From an uncultured Alphaproteobacteria bacterium (GTDB lineage Bacteria > Pseudomonadota > Alphaproteobacteria > ATCC43930 > CGMCC-115725), in assembly GCA_963733945.1 (NCBI GenBank), contig CAVTFD010000015.1:26728-90727 (forward strand): a stretch of DNA of 64,000 nt, written 5' to 3'. The translations under genes were made by a program, and so were the position numbers. Below are positions 54,761 to 62,741 of the stretch, piece by piece; the stretch's first letter is position 1, and every line of letters starts with the position of its first letter. Below the pieces are notes generated by a model. It was not told the DNA's origin and did no database searches. It saw only the letters and a program-made list of their open reading frames with translations.

Positions 54761-55753
54761 TCAAAAATGGCGGTAGCCCCCGACCTCGACCGGGATCGCC
54801 CGCCCCGCAGCGTCGACGAGCCGCACACCCGCGCCGGGCTCGATCCGACCGATCGCGGTGAGCGGCAAGTCGAGCCGCGATCCAAGTGCGCGAATGCTCT
54901 CGGTCGCTTCCGGAGCTGCCGTGAACAGCAGCTCGTAATCGTCGCCGCCGGTTGCGAGCCGTGGCGCAATCTCCGGATCGAGCGCAACGAATGCTCTTGC
55001 GGCGGGCGACAACGGCAGCGCTTCGAGTTCTACGATCGCGGCGACGTCGGAGGTCTCGCAGATGTGGCCGAGATCGGCGAGGAGGCCGTCGGAAACGTCG
55101 ATCATCGCATGCGCGAGACCGCACAGCGCGGGACCGAGGGCAACGCGCGGTTCAGGGACCTGGAACCGGGCGATCAGGGCAACGCGATGTTCCGCCGCCA
55201 AGCCCGGACAGGCTCCGCGCAGCACGTAGAGTCCGAGAAACGCGTCGCCGATCGTGCCCGAGACCCAGACCACATCCCTGGGGCGGGCGCCGCTGCGCCG
55301 GATCTCGGTTCCCGACGCGACTTCGCCGATCGCGGTCAGCGACAGCACCGCCGGCCCCGAGGTCGCGACCGAATCGCCGCCCAGCAGGGCAATGCCGAAC
55401 CGCTGCTGATCGTCTTCAAGCCCGCGCGCAAAGCCGGCGATCCATTCTGTCCCGAGTTGGGCGGGCAGCGCCGTCGTCAGCAGATAATGCAATGGCTGGG
55501 CGCCCATCGCCGCGAGGTCCGACAGATTGACCCGCAGCAGTTTTTTGGCGACCAGGTCCGGCGGGTCCTCCGGCAGGTAATGCACGCCGGCGACGATCGC
55601 GTCCGCGGTCATGACCAGCCGGTGCCCGGCGCGGCAATCGACCAGTGCTGCGTCGTCGAGCAGTCCGAGCCCGCCCGGCCCCGCCAGCGGCGCGAAATAG
55701 CGCCGAATACGCTCGAACTCGCCCGCTGCCTCGCCGGCGGCGCCCGGGGGCAT
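54761..55753 (-). CDS. thiL: thiamine-monophosphate kinase
   Basis: GEFERIRRYF, LLDDAALV and VMTADAIVAGVHY...KLLRVNLSDLAAMGA...GGDS motifs. The ATG at 55753 is close to the nusB stop. Confidence 0.9.
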   Translation of the reverse strand: MPPGAAGEAAGEFERIRRYFAPLAGPGGLGLLDDAALVDCRAGHRLVMTADAIVAGVHYLPEDPPDLVAKKLLRVNLSDLAAMGAQPLHYLLTTALPAQLGTEWIAGFARGLEDDQQRFGIALLGGDSVATSGPAVLSLTAIGEVASGTEIRRSGARPRDVVWVSGTIGDAFLGLYVLRGACPGLAAEHRVALIARFQVPEPRVALGPALCGLAHAMIDVSDGLLADLGHICETSDVAAIVELEALPLSPAARAFVALDPEIAPRLATGGDDYELLFTAAPEATESIRALGSRLDLPLTAIGRIEPGAGVRLVDAAGRAIPVEVGGYRHF

Positions 55754-57783: not shown

Positions 57784-58461
57784 TTACCGGTCTTTAAATT
57801 CTTGGCTGGTGGGCAGCCCTGCCGTCCTCCATTCGGGAAATCCATCGGCGAGCCGCCGCGCCCGGTAGCCTCGCTGGCGTAACAACGCGACCGCTTCGAA
57901 CGACAGAACGCACCACGGCCCGCGGCAATAAGCGACGATCTCTTGGTCCGGCGGCAGCTCGGCCAAGCGCCGTTCCAATTGCGATAACGGGATGTTCAGG
58001 GCGTCGGGCAAATGCCCGCTGGCGAACTCATCTTCCGGCCTAACGTCGAGGACGGTGGCAGCCCCGCGGCGCAGGCGGTCGAGCAGTTCATCGCGCGATA
58101 CTGGCTCAAACTCGTCGCGAGCGCGGAAATAGCTCGCCATCACGCGCGCGATTTCGGCGCTGTTGCGCTCTCCGACGCGGCTGAGGGCTCCGAGCAAACC
58201 CACCACCACTTCGTCGCCCGCGAGACAATAGTAGACGCGCTTGCCGGCGCGGCGGCCCTCGACAAGCGCAGCGCGGCGGAGAAGCTGCAAATGCCGGGAT
58301 GCATTGGCGAGGGTGAGGCTCGCGCGAGTCGCCAAATCCTCGACGCTGCGCTCGCCTTGCCCGAGATGCTCGAGCAATTCGAGCCGATGCGCATGGGCAA
58401 GCGCGTGCGCGATCTGGGCGAGACCTGCAAAAACCTGCTGTTTCGGACCCACGCTTGACAT
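57784..58461 (-). CDS. ArsR/SmtB-family regulator fused to a rhodanese domain
   Basis: N-terminal wHTH LAHAHRLELLEHLGQGERSVEDLATRASLTLANASRHLQLLRRAALVEGRRAGKRVYY. C-terminal rhodanese domain LDVRPEDEFASGHLPDALNIP...IVAYCRGPWC (active-site Cys loop). Confidence 0.85.
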   Translation of the reverse strand: MSSVGPKQQVFAGLAQIAHALAHAHRLELLEHLGQGERSVEDLATRASLTLANASRHLQLLRRAALVEGRRAGKRVYYCLAGDEVVVGLLGALSRVGERNSAEIARVMASYFRARDEFEPVSRDELLDRLRRGAATVLDVRPEDEFASGHLPDALNIPLSQLERRLAELPPDQEIVAYCRGPWCVLSFEAVALLRQRGYRARRLADGFPEWRTAGLPTSQEFKDR

Positions 58462-58480
58462 CTCTTGCTTTCTATGGAAT

Positions 58481-58502
58481 CATTCATTAGAATAATTGAA
58501 TG
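58481..58502. promoter_or_regulatory. candidate operator in the divergent arsR-rhodanese / MBL promoter region
   Basis: AT-rich 88-nt divergent intergenic region containing the imperfect inverted repeat CATTCAttagaataaTTGAATG. Confidence 0.25.
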
Positions 58503-58549
58503 TATGTCGGCGGCCAAGCAAAGCGGCTGTCGCGCTGTGGGAGGCTCGC

Positions 58550-59293
58550 ATGATCCTGCGTCAATTCCTCCATACCGACCCCGTTGCGATCTCCTATTTG
58601 TTCGGCTGCGGCGGGCATGCCGCCTGCGCGGTCGTGGATCCGGTGGGCGACATCGCACCATATCTGCGGGTGGCCGACAACACCGGCATGCGCATCCATT
58701 TCGTGATCGACACCCATATTCACGCCGATCATCGTTCGGCGGGCAGCGCTCTCGCTGCCGAGGCGGGAGCCGAGTACGTCCTCCGCGCCGGCGCCGACGT
58801 GGGTTTCGCTTTCTACGCCCTGAAGGACAGCGAGCGCCTGCCGCTCGGCAATGTCGTGGTCGATGTCATCCATACGCCCGGCCACACGCCGGAGCATGTC
58901 TGCCTTCTGGTCACCGACCGCACGCGAGCGGACGAGCCGTGGTTCGTGCTGACCGGCCACACGTTGATGGTCGGCGATGTCGGCCGCACCGAACTCGCGA
59001 CCGACGCCGCAGCCGGCGCGCGCACCCTGTTCGCCAGCCTCGTTCGCCTGAAGGCGCTGCCCGACCATATCGAGGTACTGCCCGGCGCCTACGCCGGCTC
59101 GGTCTGCGGAAGGCGGCTCAGCGGCAAGCCCTCCTCGACGATCGGCTTCGAGCGGCGTTTCAATGCCGCGTTCCGGATCGCGGCGGCAGACGCCTTCGTC
59201 GAATTCATGTTGCAGGACATCCCGCCAGCGCCCCCCGAGGCGGCGGAGTTGCGCGCCTGGAACGCAGGACACCGCGCCGTCGCGGCGAAATGA
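58550..59293 (+). CDS. MBL-fold metallo-hydrolase (glyoxalase II / persulfide dioxygenase-like)
   Basis: The ATG at 58550 follows GGGAGG. Motifs VIDTHIHADH (HxHxDH), HTPGHTPEH and GHTLMVGDVGR. Confidence 0.85.
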   Translation: MILRQFLHTDPVAISYLFGCGGHAACAVVDPVGDIAPYLRVADNTGMRIHFVIDTHIHADHRSAGSALAAEAGAEYVLRAGADVGFAFYALKDSERLPLGNVVVDVIHTPGHTPEHVCLLVTDRTRADEPWFVLTGHTLMVGDVGRTELATDAAAGARTLFASLVRLKALPDHIEVLPGAYAGSVCGRRLSGKPSSTIGFERRFNAAFRIAAADAFVEFMLQDIPPAPPEAAELRAWNAGHRAVAAK

Positions 59294-60564
59294 CCCTGAC
59301 CGACAAGGCCGCGGCGGTCCCCGCAGGCATCGCCCTCGGCATCCGCGCCAATCTGAACAAGTTTCTGCTGCTGATCCTGCTGAACGCGTTTGTCGGCGGC
59401 ATGGTCGGGCTGGAACGGACGGTCGTGCCGCTGATCGGGGCTGAAACCTTCCACCTCGCATCGGCCAGCATCATCACCGGATTCATCATCAGCTTCGGCG
59501 TTGTTAAGGGGCTGACCAATCTCATCTCGGGTCAACTGGCCGAGACCTGGGGCCGCAAGCATACGCTGGTGTTGGGCTGGCTATTCGGGCTGCCGGTGCC
59601 GTTCATGATCATGTGGGCGCCGAGCTGGGGCTGGGTCATCGCCGCCAATGCGCTGCTCGGGGTCAACCAGGGTCTCGCGTGGTCGATGACAGTCTTGATG
59701 AAGATCGATCTGGTCGGACCGAAATCGCGCGGCCTTGCCGTCGGCCTCAACGAGTTTGCCGGCTACTTCGCGGTCGGCCTGACCGCCTTTCTGACCGGCT
59801 GGATCGCCGCGCGCTACGGCCTGCGTCCCAGCCCGTTCTATATCGGCGCCGTCTATGCCGTGCTTGGTCTGGGGCTTGCCGTCCTGGTGGTGCGCGACAC
59901 CGGCGACCACGTGCGCCACGAGGTCCGCGCGCACGGCCACGGCGAGGCCGAGGCGCTGGGCTTCTGGGAGGTGTTCCGCCGCACCAGTTTCGGGGACCGG
60001 CGGCTGTTTGCCGCCTGCCAGGCTGGGCTTGTCAACAATCTCAAGGACGGCATGGTCTGGGGGCTGTTCCCGCTATTTTTTCTCGCCTACGGCCTCGGCG
60101 TCGAGCGGATCGGTGTGCTGAAGGCTGTCTACCCCGCCTGCTGGGGCATCCTGCAAATCGTCACCGGTCCGCTGAGCGACCGGGTTGGGCGGCGGGGGCT
60201 GGTGGTCTGGGGCCTGTGGCTGCAGGCCGCGGCGCTGGCGCTGACCGCGCTCACCGGCAGTTTCGCGTGGTGGCTGCCGGCGAGCGCGTTGCTCGGGCTC
60301 GGCACCGCGATGGTCTATCCGACGCTGATAGCCGCAATCTCCGACGCCGCGCATCCGGCGATGCGGGCCCGCGCGCTCAGCGTCTATCGGTTCTGGCGCG
60401 ACCTCGGCTACGCGGTCGGCGCGCTGGCATCTGGAGTGATTGCCGACATCTTTGGCTTCGAAGCGGCGATTCTGGCCATCGCCGCGCTCACTTTTGTTTC
60501 AGGCATGGTCACGGCCGGCCTGATGCGGGACCAGCCGCGAGCCCAGAAACGGCAAGCTGCCTGA
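59290..60564 (+). CDS. MFS transporter (12 TM)
   Basis: ATGA overlap with the MBL stop. Motifs GQLAETWGRKHTL and GPLSDRVGRRG (MFS motif A-like, both halves). The 699-aa track ORF is this gene plus an out-of-frame read-through of the MBL gene. Confidence 0.85.
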   Translation: MTLTDKAAAVPAGIALGIRANLNKFLLLILLNAFVGGMVGLERTVVPLIGAETFHLASASIITGFIISFGVVKGLTNLISGQLAETWGRKHTLVLGWLFGLPVPFMIMWAPSWGWVIAANALLGVNQGLAWSMTVLMKIDLVGPKSRGLAVGLNEFAGYFAVGLTAFLTGWIAARYGLRPSPFYIGAVYAVLGLGLAVLVVRDTGDHVRHEVRAHGHGEAEALGFWEVFRRTSFGDRRLFAACQAGLVNNLKDGMVWGLFPLFFLAYGLGVERIGVLKAVYPACWGILQIVTGPLSDRVGRRGLVVWGLWLQAAALALTALTGSFAWWLPASALLGLGTAMVYPTLIAAISDAAHPAMRARALSVYRFWRDLGYAVGALASGVIADIFGFEAAILAIAALTFVSGMVTAGLMRDQPRAQKRQAA

Positions 60565-60588: not shown

Positions 60589-61365
60589 ATGAGTGACGCT
60601 TTACCGATTGACGCTGGTGCGTTGCGCGAGGAGGTGAAGGTCAAATACCGCGCCGTCGCGGTCAATCCGCATGGCAGCTATCATTTCCACACCGGCCGCC
60701 CCTTGTCGCGTCGGCTGGGCTATGACGAGGCCTTTGTGGCCAAGCTGCCGGAAAACGCGGTCGAGGCCTTTGCCGGCGTCGGCAACCCCTTCTCGATGAG
60801 CATCTTGCAGCCCGGCGAACGGGTCGTCGATCTCGGCTCCGGAGGCGGTTTCGACTGCTTTATCGCGGCCGGTCAGGTCGGGCGGGAAGGCCATGTCGTT
60901 GGCGTCGACATGACTGAGGAGATGCTCGGCCGGTCGCGCGCCGCCGCGACCGCTATGGGTGTGGGCAATGTCGAATTTCGGCAAGGTATGATCGAGGACT
61001 TGCCAATTGAAGACGGCTCGGCCGATGTCGTAATCAGCAACGGCGTCATCAACCTATGCGCCGACAAGCGCCGGGTCCTCGCTGAGGTCATGCGCGTACT
61101 GAAACCGGGTGGGCGCTTGCAGTTTGCGGATATCGCCAACGGTAAGGAGATTCCGGCAGGCGCGCTGCGCAATATTGATTTGTGGACCGATTGAATTGCC
61201 GGTGGCCTGCCGTGCGCAGGCTGGCGGCATATGCTTGAGCAGAGCGGTTTCGTCGAGGTCCAAATCGGCCCGCCAGTTGACACCTTTGGCGGTGCCGGCG
61301 GCGAGAGCAAGGCACGGTTGTTCGAAGTGTTTGGTTACGCCTTTCTGGCGCACAAACCGAAATAG
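60589..61365 (+). CDS. ArsM/UbiE-like class I SAM-dependent methyltransferase with in-frame TGA (candidate Sec; otherwise a nonsense-truncated gene)
   Basis: VVDLGSGGGFDCF (SAM motif I), ADVVISNGVINL and VLKPGGRL. The track ORF stops at TGA 61192-61194, but the same frame continues for 56 codons (IAGGLPCAGWRHMLEQSGFVEVQIGPP...FGYAFLAHKPK) to TAG 61363-61365. This matches the usual C-terminus of ArsM-like enzymes. Confidence 0.7.
61198..61228 (+). promoter_or_regulatory. SECIS-like stem-loop immediately downstream of the in-frame UGA
   Basis: GCCGGUGGCCUGC (61198-61210), loop CGUGC (61211-61215), GCAGGCUGGCGGC (61216-61228). This is a 13-position stem with one G-G mismatch and two G-U pairs. 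The loop contains GU and starts 17 nt after the UGA. Confidence 0.45.
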
Positions 61366-61373
61366 GGGGCACT

Positions 61374-61404
61374 GAGCGTGCGATCTCTTTCAGGTCGCAC
61401 GCTC
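61374..61404 (+). terminator. terminator-like hairpin after the methyltransferase gene (no U-tract)
   Basis: Perfect 10-bp stem: GAGCGTGCGA (61374-61383) paired with TCGCACGCTC (61395-61404). Confidence 0.4.
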
Positions 61405-61471
61405 AACTATCCGTCTAGTGCGAGAGGCGCGGGCAGGAAAGCGGTCGGTCTTCTAACCTTGGGCAAGAACA

Positions 61472-62083
61472 ATGAGTAAATCTACTCTCATCGCAACGAT
61501 GGTTATCGTGCTGCTCGGCGGCATAACATCCGTTGTCGTAGCCCAGCAATCGAATCCAGTCCCGTGGAACCGGTGCTGCGGCCTAAGTCCGTGGTCAGCG
61601 ATGGGGCCGGGAATGATGGGCGGGGGGATGATGGGGGGCGGCGGCGGAAGCGGCAGAGGCGGGATGATGGGGGGCGGCGGCGGATACGGCAGTATGCCGC
61701 GGATGCACTTCGCCATGATGTCGGGAGTTCCAGCGCCTTACAATTCAATGACCAATCCGCTGCCGAGAACCCGCGAGACGGTCGAACGAGGCGCTAAGAT
61801 CTACGAGCAAAACTGCGCTTCTTGCCACGGGACAACCGGCTTAGGCGACGGTCCGGTCGGTCGAACCCTCTCGCCGCCGCCGGCCAATCTCGCGTTTCTT
61901 TCGCAAATGCCGATGGTTCAGTGGGACCCGTTTATGTACTGGACCGTCGCCGAGGGCGGCGCACAGTTTGGGAGTGCGATGCCGACATTCAAGGGCACGT
62001 TGTCCAAAGACGATATCTGGGCAGTTATTGCCTACATACAGGCCCGGTTGCCACAGACGGCGGCTAAACAAGAACAAAAATAA
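61472..62083 (+). CDS. secreted class I c-type cytochrome with N-terminal Met/Gly-rich segment
   Basis: Signal or anchor sequence MSKSTLIATMVIVLLGGITSVVVAQ. Met/Gly-rich GPGMMGGGMMGGGGGSGRGGMMGGGGGYGSMPRMHFAMM. Haem motif CASCH and distal SAMPTF. Confidence 0.85.
   Translation: MSKSTLIATMVIVLLGGITSVVVAQQSNPVPWNRCCGLSPWSAMGPGMMGGGMMGGGGGSGRGGMMGGGGGYGSMPRMHFAMMSGVPAPYNSMTNPLPRTRETVERGAKIYEQNCASCHGTTGLGDGPVGRTLSPPPANLAFLSQMPMVQWDPFMYWTVAEGGAQFGSAMPTFKGTLSKDDIWAVIAYIQARLPQTAAKQEQK
61625..61696 (+). repeat. in-frame 36-nt tandem duplication inside the cytochrome c gene
   Basis: GGGATGATGGGGGGCGGCGGCGGAAGCGGCAGAGGC is followed by GGGATGATGGGGGGCGGCGGCGGATACGGCAGTATG. They encode GMMGGGGGSGRG and GMMGGGGGYGSM. 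Confidence 0.9.
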
Positions 62084-62117: not shown

Positions 62118-62741
62118 CTAGTGCGCGTGGTCGAACTCGCCTTTCGCCATCGCGAGGTGGTGTGGCTGATGCCATGCGCCGCTGACCAGCAGGCCGATGA
62201 AACCTAGGCAGCGAATATGCTGGACTTCCTTGGAGGTGGTCGCGGTGACTGTAAGCAGTTCGCCATTGGGCAGCGGGGCGGCCTTGGCGTTCCAACCGTT
62301 GAGGCCGTTTGCCATCTGTATCCAAGCTGGGATCATTCGTTGGATCGCGATCAGTGTGCGGCCGTTGCCGGTGACGGCAACTTCCAAACCGCCGTCGATC
62401 TGTTTTGGAGCAGCGTCGGCCTTAAGGGTGACCTCGTTCATATCAATAAGATGCTGACGCAGCGCTTCGAGATCGACCTTTGACCAATCGGTCTTCGGAT
62501 CGGCGTCGAGGATTCGCACGATCTCCTGAATAGCGCCGAATGCGGCTTGGCCGGGCATCGTTGGCGTCGCCAAGGCGGCGTGCGTCCCGGCATGGTCGCC
62601 CATCGGCATCTCCTGCATGTGCTCCGGCTTCATCGAATGGCCCTTGAGGGGCGCTTCTGCGAGCGCGATGCCTGATGCTGCGAAGACAAACAGGGCACTG
62701 ACGGCAACGAGCTTACGGATAGAAAGCATGGGAAACCTCAC
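62118..62741 (-). CDS. periplasmic Met/His-rich protein of unknown function
   Basis: Signal peptide LVAVSALFVFAASGIALA. Met/His-rich HSMKPEHMQEMPMGDHAGTH. C-terminal HQPHHLAMAKGEFDHAH. No family recognised. Confidence 0.6.
   Translation of the reverse strand: MRFPMLSIRKLVAVSALFVFAASGIALAEAPLKGHSMKPEHMQEMPMGDHAGTHAALATPTMPGQAAFGAIQEIVRILDADPKTDWSKVDLEALRQHLIDMNEVTLKADAAPKQIDGGLEVAVTGNGRTLIAIQRMIPAWIQMANGLNGWNAKAAPLPNGELLTVTATTSKEVQHIRCLGFIGLLVSGAWHQPHHLAMAKGEFDHAH

What the first reader, a model, noticed from the sequence alone, without database searches (positions are those of the whole stretch)
60589..61365. In-frame UGA plus SECIS-like hairpin: candidate selenocysteine-containing ArsM-like methyltransferase
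The methyltransferase ORF stops at TGA 61192-61194, but the same frame stays open for 56 more codons to TAG 61363-61365. The extension (IAGGLPCAGWRHMLEQSGFVEVQIGPP...) has the character of the normal C-terminus of ArsM/UbiE-like enzymes. The UGA sits in ...NIDLWTD-U-IAGGL, where ArsM-type enzymes as I recall them carry a conserved catalytic Cys (...C-x-[AS]-G-A...). A 13-position stem starts 4 nt after the UGA, and its 5-nt apical loop CGUGC begins 17 nt downstream. This is the geometry of bacterial SECIS elements (GU-containing loop roughly 16-37 nt from the UGA). Arsenite-methyltransferase-like selenoproteins have been reported from metagenomic selenoproteome surveys, so the family is plausible, but a Sec form in this organism would still be notable. 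The alternative is a TGC/TGT to TGA nonsense mutation or a base-call error.
Basis: partly seen in the sequence, partly recalled or inferred. Interest (0 to 1): 0.75.

Follow-up and report, generated by a model that had tools for sequence, protein, structure and literature searches.

The report
Selenocysteine-containing ArsM-like methyltransferase gene
The apparent stop codon inside this methyltransferase gene is almost certainly read as selenocysteine, so this is a real but mis-callable selenoprotein gene of a family already reported in selenoprotein surveys, not a mutation or sequencing error.

Summary
ORF 60589-61194 ends at TGA 61192-94, and the same frame stays open for 56 codons to TAG 61363-65. 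A hairpin lies 3' of the TGA.

The Sec reading is strongly supported:
- All 54 closest genomic relatives, from several phyla, have TGA (never TAA or TAG) at this column, followed by a conserved in-frame extension.
- More distant relatives have Cys there. The column is the As(III)-binding Cys224 of CmArsM.
- The 8-bp stem and CGUGY loop are conserved, with compensatory changes, and are absent from Cys forms.
- In two alphaproteobacterial relatives, selB and tRNA-Sec lie within 10 kb of the gene; one of them also carries selA and selD.
- TGA is an ordinary stop elsewhere in the window.

Sec machinery was not found in the 64-kb window, and the rest of this genome could not be searched.

ArsM-type selenoproteins with this UxxG motif are already listed in the literature (Fomenko 2007; GOS 2008), so this is a new member of a known kind. 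One twist: this clade lacks three of the four canonical ArsM cysteines ("SNG" in place of "SNC") and is mostly Sec. It recurs with an ArsR-rhodanese regulator, an MBL-fold protein and an MFS transporter. Its substrate may therefore not be arsenite.

The parts
60589..61365 (+). Full selenoprotein gene: 258-codon ArsM-like class I SAM-dependent methyltransferase (ATG 60589 to TAG 61363-65), with Sec at codon 202
   Evidence: Searches give the frame. One search gives Pfam Methyltransf_31 at 112 bits. One search gives NCBIfam PRK11873 at 235 bits, against a cutoff of 263. In one search the alignment to solved ArsM structures runs through the TGA to residue 227.
61192..61194 (+). In-frame UGA = predicted selenocysteine codon (Sec202), at the column of CmArsM Cys224
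   Evidence: TGA is found in all 54 related loci (never TAA or TAG) and Cys in 26 of 26 more distant loci. Alignment to 5evj, 8xt7 and 5eg5 places it on the conserved GEC(L/I)(A/G)G Cys.
61203..61223 (+). Conserved core of the SECIS-like element: 8-bp stem 61203-61210/61216-61223 with apical loop CGUGC 61211-61215
   Evidence: 94% of cells are paired across 50 sequences. Three of 8 pairs show double-sided compensatory changes in 13 cells (0 of 500 shuffles reach this). Slid controls are 19-50% paired. The loop is CGUGY in 49 of 55 sequences. No such hairpin is present in the 26 Cys homologs.
61197..61229 (+). Full MFE hairpin in this window, including a 5-bp lower stem (61197-61201/61225-61229) that is not conserved in relatives
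   Evidence: One search gives -26.4 kcal/mol with z = -1.7. In one search the outer pairs are formed in only 24-72% of the sequences, pair by pair (48% overall).
61195..61362 (+). 56-codon C-terminal extension translated only if UGA is decoded
   Evidence: Codon-position entropy is 0.54/0.44/1.29, the same as the 50 upstream codons at 0.53/0.38/1.30. Against L001 there are 10 synonymous and 3 non-synonymous codon differences. Extension length is 55-56 codons in 46 of 55 loci.
61373..61405 (+). 14-bp hairpin immediately after the true stop codon (possible 3'-end or terminator-like structure, no U tract)
   Evidence: -30 kcal/mol, z = -4.5, 0 of 200 shuffles.
57784..58461 (-). Divergent ArsR/SmtB-family HTH regulator fused to a rhodanese domain; recurrent neighbour of the selenoprotein gene
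   Evidence: HTH_metalloreg 70 bits; Rhodanese 66 bits. A homolog lies within about 4 kb of the methyltransferase gene in 17 loci from several phyla.
58496..59293 (+). MBL-fold (HxHxDH) hydrolase/dioxygenase-like gene, first gene of the putative operon
   Evidence: (GloB-like 67 bits, below cutoff). A sigma70-like promoter lies at 58455-58483. It co-occurs with the gene in 10 loci.
59293..60564 (+). MFS transporter gene (start approximate), directly upstream of the selenoprotein gene
   Evidence: MFS models. One search finds 75% DNA identity to annotated MFS transporters in Methylocystis, Bradyrhizobium and Rhizobium plasmids. It co-occurs with the gene in 10 loci.

Best explanation
60589-61365 is one gene for a 258-residue ArsM-like SAM-dependent methyltransferase. 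UGA 61192-94 is recoded to selenocysteine (Sec202) by the bacterial SelB/tRNA-Sec pathway.

The recoding signal is the hairpin just downstream. It has an 8-bp stem at 61203-61223 and a CGUGC loop whose G-U sits 18-19 nt after the UGA. This matches the position at which SelB binds a bacterial SECIS.

Sec202 replaces the C-terminal substrate-binding Cys of ArsM (CmArsM Cys224). It is inferred to act as the nucleophilic, soft-ligand residue that holds a metalloid or chalcogen substrate next to SAM for methylation.

What is shown:
- the gene structure;
- conservation of TGA, and of the reading frame beyond it, under purifying selection;
- the Sec/Cys pair at a known catalytic column;
- the conserved, covarying hairpin;
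- Sec machinery adjacent to the gene in two relatives.

What is inferred:
- actual Sec insertion in this organism;
- the chemical role of Sec;
- the substrate. Arsenite is the default by homology, but it is doubtful (see Membership tests).

The gene appears to be the third gene of an MBL-fold / MFS / methyltransferase operon, under a divergent ArsR-rhodanese regulator.
For: (1): L001-L054 all have TGA at the column, followed by IAGGLPCAGW... for about 56 codons. These loci come from Alpha-, Gamma- and 'Delta'-proteobacteria, Acidimicrobiia, SAR324, Eisenbacteria and Anaerolineae. They include the cultured actinomycetes Pseudonocardia asaccharolytica DSM 44247 and Actinomycetospora cinnamomea DSM 45771. 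L055-L080 have Cys.

(2): nearly all of the 120 best database proteins listed end at ...LWTD, most of them 201 aa; the one 'Trp' homolog (P0003) is actually TGA.

(3): variability after the TGA is concentrated at third codon positions, and substitutions are mostly synonymous. The pattern is the same as before the TGA.

(4): the alignment to ArsM crystal structures continues through the TGA, which lands on CmArsM C224.

(5): the inner stem is 94% paired. Compensatory pairs are 17-33 (GC 44 / CG 5), 18-32 (CG 34 / UA 3) and 21-29 (GC 44 / UA 5); the loop is CGUGY in 49 of 55 sequences; the hairpin is absent from 26 Cys forms.

(6): tRNA-Sec is found by both ARAGORN and Rfam (73-75 bits) in L007 and L010; selB is in L007; selA, selB and selD are in L010. 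All lie within 10 kb of the gene.

(7): TGA terminates 8 of 12 confident genes in the window, so TGA is not reassigned genome-wide.

(8): ArsM (PRK11873/NF008823) with a UxxG Sec motif is a listed prokaryotic selenoprotein family. NCBIfam holds three curated ArsM-type selenoprotein models, which match this protein at 203-229 bits.
Against: No selA, selB, selC or selD is present in the 64-kb window. The only AIR-synthase-fold gene is thiL. The rest of the genome was not available.

The window's hairpin is not significant against shuffles on its own.

RNAalifold did not recover the stem as the consensus structure. In 11 of 50 sequences there is a U-C mismatch at pair 18-32.

Part of the stem's conservation could be a by-product of protein conservation of GGLPCAGW.

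There is no Rfam SECIS hit, though none is expected, because Rfam covers few bacterial SECIS types.

No experimental evidence exists for this clade.
Confidence: 0.9

Rival explanations
1. The gene is a genuine selenoprotein gene in the clade, but in this particular organism it is a relic. The Sec machinery has been lost and translation stops at UGA, giving an inactive 201-aa fragment.
For: No Sec machinery is present in the window. The rest of the genome is unseen.
Against: The 56-codon extension is intact. It differs from its closest relatives mainly by synonymous changes: 10 synonymous versus 3 non-synonymous against L001, and 12 versus 4 against L003. The hairpin is fully intact and identical to that of L001. 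The RBS and the downstream 3' hairpin are in place.
Confidence: 0.05
2. UGA is read through without selenium. Either near-cognate Trp or Cys is inserted, or the lineage has a reassigned code, with the hairpin acting as a generic read-through stimulator.
For: A JGI gene caller translated the homologous TGA as Trp (P0003). A downstream hairpin can stimulate read-through in general.
Against: The 'W' is only a code-4 gene call on a TGA. TGA ends 8 of 12 confident genes here. The carriers span many phyla with the standard code. The column is a catalytic Cys in homologs, which is the classic Sec/Cys pair. selB and tRNA-Sec co-localise in L007 and L010, with selA and selD also in L010.
Confidence: 0.03
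3. This is a nonsense mutation, a sequencing error, or two separate genes: a 201-aa methyltransferase plus a small downstream ORF.
For: Gene callers annotate it that way everywhere. An internal ATG exists at 61231.
Against: The same TGA occurs in all 54 independent loci, including isolate genomes. Conservation begins immediately after the TGA, 12 codons before the ATG, with no RBS. The region is homologous to the contiguous ArsM polypeptide. Among 50%-identity cluster representatives, 35 end at exactly this column.
Confidence: 0.02

Closest known systems
Sec-containing arsenite S-adenosylmethyltransferase (PRK11873/NF008823, motif UxxG). Sources: Fomenko et al. 2007 Science, as cited in PMC9312934 and PMC13188914; GOS survey PMC2398784
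   Same: The fold is the same: class I SAM methyltransferase, best NCBIfam hit PRK11873. The Sec motif is the same (U-I-A-G = UxxG). There is one Sec per protein. The Sec/Cys pair sits at the Cys224 column of CmArsM. The family was found in marine and soil metagenomes.
   Different: This protein scores below the PRK11873 cutoff (235 versus 263 bits). It lacks the Cys at the CmArsM 44, 72 and 174 positions, with V64 and G152 at the latter two. I could not retrieve the published representative (WP_011987699.1) to see which clade it belongs to.
Canonical ArsM / AS3MT (CmArsM PDB 4FR0/5EG5; Chlamydomonas ArsM 5EVJ; human AS3MT 8XT7)
   Same: The SAM-binding core and the C-terminal continuation are homologous: E = 1e-28 to 5evj, aligned over residues 48-227. 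The GE-C-(L/I)(A/G)G motif is conserved as TD-U-IAGG.
   Different: Canonical enzymes have GCGNP, SNCVINL and N-terminal Cys pairs, and use Cys at all sites. This clade has AGVGNP, SNGVINL(C) and no N-terminal Cys. None of the canonical SNC-type representatives examined ends at the Sec column.
NCBIfam multi-Sec fusion selenoproteins: NF041537 (ArsM/AhpD), NF041536 (ArsM/DUF2284) and NF047649 (MTase/UXPK-star). Source: Haft & Tolstoy 2025, cited in PMC13188914
   Same: The methyltransferase domain matches at 203-229 bits over residues 8-226, with the same UxxG motif. One representative, P0121, looks like the AhpD + ArsM + SNG-methyltransferase type and also ends at the Sec column.
   Different: Those are 283-459-position multi-domain proteins with 2-3 Sec. 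This one is single-domain with a single Sec, and all three scores are far below their cutoffs of 460-575.
E. coli fdhF-type bacterial SECIS (SelB-binding hairpin immediately 3' of UGA)
   Same: The hairpin lies inside the coding sequence directly after the UGA. The apical loop carries a conserved G-U about 17-19 nt from the UGA. This geometry agrees with the bSECIS consensus as I recall it: the loop lies 16-37 nt from the UGA, with G among the first two loop bases.
   Different: The sequence is unrelated and there is no Rfam match. No bulged U is evident. SelB binding is untested.

Membership tests
Bacterial selenoprotein gene (SelB/SECIS-dependent UGA recoding) | In-frame UGA with the reading frame conserved on both sides under purifying selection | tested here: met
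Bacterial selenoprotein gene (SelB/SECIS-dependent UGA recoding) | Sec/Cys pair: homologs carry Cys at the UGA column | tested here: met
   The 26 distant loci have Cys, and so do the Cys forms within the same clade: 13 SNG-type cluster representatives (among them P0123, P0154 and P0159) and locus L055.
Bacterial selenoprotein gene (SelB/SECIS-dependent UGA recoding) | SECIS hairpin immediately downstream of the UGA, conserved in structure | tested here: met
   94% paired, with 3 compensatory pairs; absent in Cys forms. Caveats: one search gives z = -1.7 for the single sequence, and RNAalifold did not recover the stem.
Bacterial selenoprotein gene (SelB/SECIS-dependent UGA recoding) | selA, selB, selC and selD present in the same genome | not testable with these tools
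Of the relatives, L007 carries selB and tRNA-Sec next to the gene, and L010 carries selA, selB, selD and tRNA-Sec.
Bacterial selenoprotein gene (SelB/SECIS-dependent UGA recoding) | Selenium actually incorporated (75Se labelling or mass spectrometry) | not testable with these tools
   Experimental test only.
Arsenite methyltransferase ArsM/AS3MT | Class I SAM-binding methyltransferase domain | tested here: met
   (Methyltransf_31 112 bits; Methyltransf_11/25).
Arsenite methyltransferase ArsM/AS3MT | At least 3 of the 4 conserved Cys (CmArsM 44, 72, 174, 224); criterion used in PMC5552862 | tested here: not met
   Only the 224 position is occupied, by Sec. Position 72 is V64 and position 174 is G152. 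There is no Cys in the N-terminal 89 residues.
Arsenite methyltransferase ArsM/AS3MT | Score above the curated NCBIfam PRK11873 cutoff | tested here: not met
   235 bits against a cutoff of 263.
Arsenite methyltransferase ArsM/AS3MT | As(III) methylation activity | not testable with these tools
   Experimental test only. The context gives no support: the ArsR-family regulator lacks the CVC As-binding motif, and no arsenic-resistance gene family turned up among the neighbouring window genes that were scanned.

The most novel reading that the evidence does not exclude
The 'SNG' clade to which this gene belongs may not be an arsenite methyltransferase at all. It could be a distinct, predominantly Sec-dependent methyltransferase family.

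Its only invariant reactive residue is the single Sec or Cys at the ArsM-C224 column. Among cluster representatives, 35 are Sec-truncated and 13 have Cys. Cys157 is present in only 14 of the 35 Sec forms.

The gene recurs in a module with an ArsR-rhodanese regulator, an MBL-fold (persulfide-dioxygenase-like) protein and an MFS transporter. The module appears across Proteobacteria, Actinomycetota, Eisenbacteria and Chloroflexota.

This would point to methylation or volatilisation of a chalcogen species (sulfide or persulfide, selenide, tellurium) or of an organo-metalloid. The substrate would be held on a single selenolate, rather than As(III) chelated by three thiolates.
Probability: 0.3. Interest if true: 0.55.

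Novelty: new member of a known kind. Interest (0 to 1): 0.35.

Why it matters
There are three practical points.

(1) Annotation. Public gene callers truncate this gene at the UGA essentially everywhere. Nearly all of the best 120 homologs listed, and 35 of the 95 cluster representatives examined, end at the Sec column. The catalytic C-terminal quarter, including the active-site residue, is therefore missing from thousands of database entries labelled 'arsenite methyltransferase'. Surveys that count arsM, or that screen for its conserved Cys residues, will misjudge these genes.

(2) Physiology. The gene marks its host, an aerobic-type soil alphaproteobacterium, as a likely Sec user. It also links selenium availability to a metalloid or chalcogen methylation function.

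(3) Enzymology. A clade that keeps only the C224-equivalent residue, and prefers Sec there, is a natural experiment on which ligand is indispensable in ArsM-type chemistry.

None of this overturns current knowledge. ArsM-type selenoproteins have been known since 2007-2008.

Tried and rejected
- Rfam at gathering threshold on the whole window, and at E <= 10 on 61100-61400, gave no SECIS or tRNA hit. This is uninformative, because bacterial SECIS elements are barely represented in Rfam.
- RNAalifold on the 50-sequence alignment returned only a 4-bp mini-hairpin, not the stem. I relied on explicit pair counts instead.
- The ARAGORN tRNA-SeC call in L017 (80 nt) is rejected, because Rfam does not confirm it.
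- The ARAGORN 'tRNA-Ala' inside the ORF is rejected as spurious.
- The window's E. coli SelD-like tblastn hit (54821-55657) is thiL, not selD.
- The look-up of encoding contigs for the identical protein P0002 found nothing, so the source contig and genome could not be traced.
The 201-aa part was used instead.
- Methylocystis plasmid pGW6_1 shares the MBL-MFS pair, but its adjacent SAM methyltransferase is not an ortholog: 34% identity over the core only.
- Haft & Tolstoy 2025 (PMC12013261) is not held in the library.
- The entropy comparison of Sec versus Cys forms after the column is suggestive of an RNA-level constraint. It is confounded by the greater overall divergence of the Cys set, so I do not rest on it.
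- Structure prediction was not run. The tool returns no coordinates from which the C157/U202/C209 geometry could be read.

Full report
**Observation.**
- An ORF with a good ribosome-binding site (GAGGAGG, then ATG 60589) runs to TGA 61192-61194, after ...NIDLWTD.
- The same frame continues for exactly 56 codons (IAGGLPCAGWRHMLEQSGFVEVQIGPP...FGYAFLAHKPK) to TAG 61363-61365.
- The RNA just 3' of the UGA folds into a hairpin:
  - a 5-bp lower stem at 61197-61201/61225-61229;
  - an 8-bp upper stem at 61203-61210/61216-61223;
  - a CGUGC loop at 61211-61215.
- Taken alone, this hairpin is not remarkable for a 64% G+C sequence. Its z-score is -1.7, and 11 of 200 shuffles fold as well.
- A much stronger hairpin (14 bp, z = -4.5) follows the second stop, at 61373-61405. 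That fits a gene that ends at 61365, not at 61194.

**What the protein is.**
- The read-through product is a class I SAM-dependent methyltransferase (Pfam Methyltransf_31, 112 bits).
- Its best curated match is NCBIfam PRK11873, 'arsenite methyltransferase', at 235 bits. That is below the 263-bit cutoff.
- It is followed closely by three curated ArsM-type selenoprotein models: NF041537, NF041536 and NF047649, at 203-229 bits.
- Against solved structures the best matches are ArsM/AS3MT: 5evj at 1e-28, then 8xt7, 5eg5 and 4fr0.
- The alignment runs straight through the TGA to residue 227. The TGA lands on the Cys of the conserved GE-C-(L/I)(A/G)G motif. By the chain numbering, that is CmArsM Cys224.

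**Is the TGA conserved?** Yes, overwhelmingly.
- In the 5.8-billion-protein search, nearly all of the 120 best hits listed (81-88% identity) end at ...LWTD, most of them 201 aa. There are two exceptions:
  - P0003 has 'W' at the column, but its DNA has TGA there. This was a code-4 gene call.
  - P0001 bypasses the TGA through a local frame shift.
- A scan of one genome per species returned 80 loci.
  - L001-L054 all carry TGA at the column, never TAA or TAG. A conserved in-frame extension follows, 55-56 codons long in 46 of 55 cases.
  - These loci come from Alpha-, Gamma- and 'Delta'-proteobacteria, Acidimicrobiia, SAR324, Eisenbacteria and Anaerolineae.
  - They include the isolates Pseudonocardia asaccharolytica DSM 44247 and Actinomycetospora cinnamomea DSM 45771.
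  - L055-L080 carry Cys there.
- Across the Sec-type loci, per-codon-position entropy after the TGA is 0.54/0.44/1.29. Before it, the values are 0.53/0.38/1.30.
- The window differs from its closest relatives in the extension mainly by synonymous changes: 10 synonymous versus 3 non-synonymous against L001, and 12 versus 4 against L003.
- The extension is therefore translated, and the TGA is neither a mutation nor a base-call error.
- TGA is not reassigned in this genome. It terminates 8 of 12 confidently identified genes in the window.

**The hairpin.** I aligned the 51 nt around the TGA from 50 distinct sequences and counted pairs.
- The lower 5-bp stem is not conserved. Its pairs form in only 24-72% of the sequences, pair by pair.
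- The upper 8-bp stem is paired in 94% of cells, against 19-50% when the partner strand is slid.
- Three of its eight pairs show changes on both sides that keep pairing: 17-33 (GC 44 / CG 5), 18-32 (CG 34 / UA 3) and 21-29 (GC 44 / UA 5). That is 13 cells, a value reached by 0 of 500 shuffles.
- These compensations involve amino-acid changes on both arms. Examples are GGC CUG...GCA GGC becoming GCU CUG...GCA GAG, or CUU...GAA.
- The loop is CGUGY in 49 of 55 sequences.
- In the two actinomycete isolates the Cys codon UGY is replaced by Arg CGU, which keeps the G-U. The conserved 'Cys209' may therefore be at least partly an RNA-level constraint.
- The 26 Cys-type homologs show no hairpin at this place. 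They also differ in G+C, so this control is imperfect.
- Two further caveats: RNAalifold did not recover the stem as the consensus structure, and 11 sequences have a U-C mismatch at pair 18-32.
- The geometry agrees with the bacterial SECIS consensus as I know it. The loop starts 17 nt after the UGA and G is the second loop base. This is my recollection of Zhang & Gladyshev's bSECIS model, not something tested here.

**Sec machinery.**
- The window holds none. ARAGORN and Rfam find no tRNA-Sec.
- The only SelD-like tblastn hit is thiL.
- The rest of the window is ordinary chromosome: parE, plsX, ribH/ribE, thiL and H+-PPase.
- The source genome could not be traced.
- In relatives the machinery sits next to the gene.
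  - L007 (Xanthobacteraceae, 75% identity) has selB (TIGR00475, 422 bits), with tRNA-Sec overlapping its 3' end. They lie 2 kb downstream of the methyltransferase gene.
  - L010 (Alphaproteobacteria, 72% identity) has a run of five features within about 9 kb of the gene. These are an AhpD-related (seleno)protein, a Pyr_redox_2-SelD fusion, tRNA-Sec, selB and selA (582 bits).
  - Rfam confirms both tRNA-Sec genes at 73-75 bits.
  - A third ARAGORN call, in L017, is not confirmed and is discarded.

**Comparison with what is known.**
- ArsM-type selenoproteins are established in the literature.
  - The GOS survey lists 'arsenite S-adenosylmethyltransferase, PRK11873' with 8 Sec and 245 Cys sequences (PMC2398784).
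  - Two reviews list 'arsenite methyltransferase, NF008823, motif UxxG, 1 Sec', citing Fomenko et al. 2007 (PMC9312934 and PMC13188914).
- The motif here is U-I-A-G, which is UxxG. The finding is therefore a new member of a known selenoprotein family, not a new kind.

**Membership versus mechanism.** The protein works like an ArsM, but it fails the usual ArsM definition.
- Chen et al. required a SAM domain plus at least 3 of the 4 Cys at CmArsM positions 44, 72, 174 and 224 (PMC5552862). Here only position 224 is occupied, by Sec.
- The C72 column is Val64 (AGVGNP instead of GCGNP).
- The C174 column is Gly152 (SNGVINLC instead of SNCVINL).
- There is no N-terminal Cys.
- All 54 Sec-type loci and one Cys-type locus (L055) share this 'SNG' pattern. 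All canonical 'SNC' loci use Cys.
- I examined 95 of the 150 listed 50%-identity cluster representatives.
  - 35 SNG-type proteins end exactly at the Sec column, and 13 SNG-type proteins have Cys.
  - None of the SNC-type proteins ends there.
  - The shifted Cys157 is present in only 14 of the 35 Sec forms.
- Sec or Cys at position 202 is therefore the only invariant reactive residue of the clade.

**Gene context.**
- The gene is the last of an apparent MBL-fold / MFS-transporter / methyltransferase operon.
- A sigma70-like promoter lies at 58455-58483.
- The operon is divergent from an ArsR-family regulator fused to a rhodanese domain. That regulator lacks the CVC arsenite-binding motif.
- Homologs of the regulator lie within about 4 kb of the methyltransferase gene in 17 loci. 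Homologs of the MBL and MFS genes each do so in 10 loci. The hosts span Proteobacteria, Acidimicrobiia, Actinomycetes, Eisenbacteria and a Cys-form Anaerolineaceae.
- This context resembles sulfide/persulfide-type modules more than ars operons. The arsenite assignment is therefore only a default by homology.

**Verdict.**
- I put about 0.9 on 'genuine Sec-recoded ArsM-like methyltransferase gene'.
- The remaining probability is spread over three rivals:
  - a relic gene in a host that has lost Sec;
  - non-Sec read-through;
  - an artefact, which effectively excludes.
- Novelty is modest: a new member of a known kind.
- The most novel reading still open, at about 0.3, is that the SNG clade is a distinct, mostly Sec-dependent methyltransferase family with a non-arsenite substrate.

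Noticed in passing
window 60865-60954 (+): ARAGORN calls a 90-nt 'tRNA-Ala (ggc)' inside the methyltransferase ORF. Rfam at gathering threshold finds no tRNA anywhere in the window, so this is almost certainly a false positive in G+C-rich coding sequence.
   Followed up: partly
window 61373-61405 (+): A perfect 14-bp hairpin (-30 kcal/mol, z = -4.5) begins 8 nt after the true stop TAG 61363-65. It has no U tract. It may be a 3'-end or terminator-like structure marking the real end of the gene.
   Followed up: partly
window 61472-62083 (+) and 62118-62741 (-): The downstream cytochrome c has a striking Gly/Met-rich N-terminal stretch (GPGMMGGGMMGGGGGSGRGGMMGGGGG). The convergent 207-aa ORF, which has no family hit, has a His/Met-rich motif (MKPEHMQEMPMGDH). 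This may reflect copper or soft-metal binding.
   Followed up: no
L007 7417-7508 (-) and 7461-9437 (-): The tRNA-Sec gene overlaps the 3' end of the selB ORF by about 48 nt. This matches the nested or overlapping selC-selB arrangement reported for Alphaproteobacteria (Mukai 2021, cited in PMC13188914).
   Followed up: partly
L010 10001-19240: A compact 'selenium island' with six features in a row. They are the Sec methyltransferase, an AhpD-related (seleno)protein (NF041238, 287 bits), a pyridine-nucleotide-disulfide-oxidoreductase-SelD fusion (778-aa ORF), tRNA-Sec, selB and selA.
   Followed up: partly
L022, L023, L027 (MAG MFD00991.bin.1.39): One alphaproteobacterial MAG carries three copies of the Sec-type gene. 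Two are on the same 2.2-Mb contig. L023 and L027 have identical downstream sequence.
   Followed up: no
P0003 / L083 121-900; P0001: Public gene calls 'rescued' the full-length protein in two wrong ways. JGI read the TGA as Trp, a code-4 model. An ENA contig has a local frame shift (…LWTE-LNCRW-LPCAGW…) that skips the TGA.
   Followed up: yes
P0138, P0140, P0142, P0150, P0170; P0121: SNG-type methyltransferase domains also occur fused to a roughly 210-aa N-terminal domain with a DISGYTRF...LEGDA motif. In P0121 the domain sits behind AhpD plus a canonical Cys-type ArsM. All of these calls also end exactly at the Sec column, so they are probably truncated selenoproteins too.
   Followed up: no
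window 61213-61215 (Cys209 codon UGC) and homologous sites: The near-invariant Cys in 'GGLPCAGW' is encoded by the G-U of the SECIS loop. In Pseudonocardia and Actinomycetospora it is Arg (CGU), which keeps the G-U. In Cys-type clade members this segment is highly variable. The residue's conservation may therefore be driven by the RNA, not by the protein.
   Followed up: partly
L081 (Methylocystis rosea plasmid pGW6_1, NZ_CP034087.1 8512-17637): A related MBL-fold + MFS pair (75% DNA identity for the MFS gene) sits among an ArsR-family regulator, two DsrE-family proteins, a cysteine desulfurase, a SHOCT protein and several SAM methyltransferases. This is a sulfur/selenium-trafficking-like neighbourhood without the Sec methyltransferase.
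   Followed up: partly
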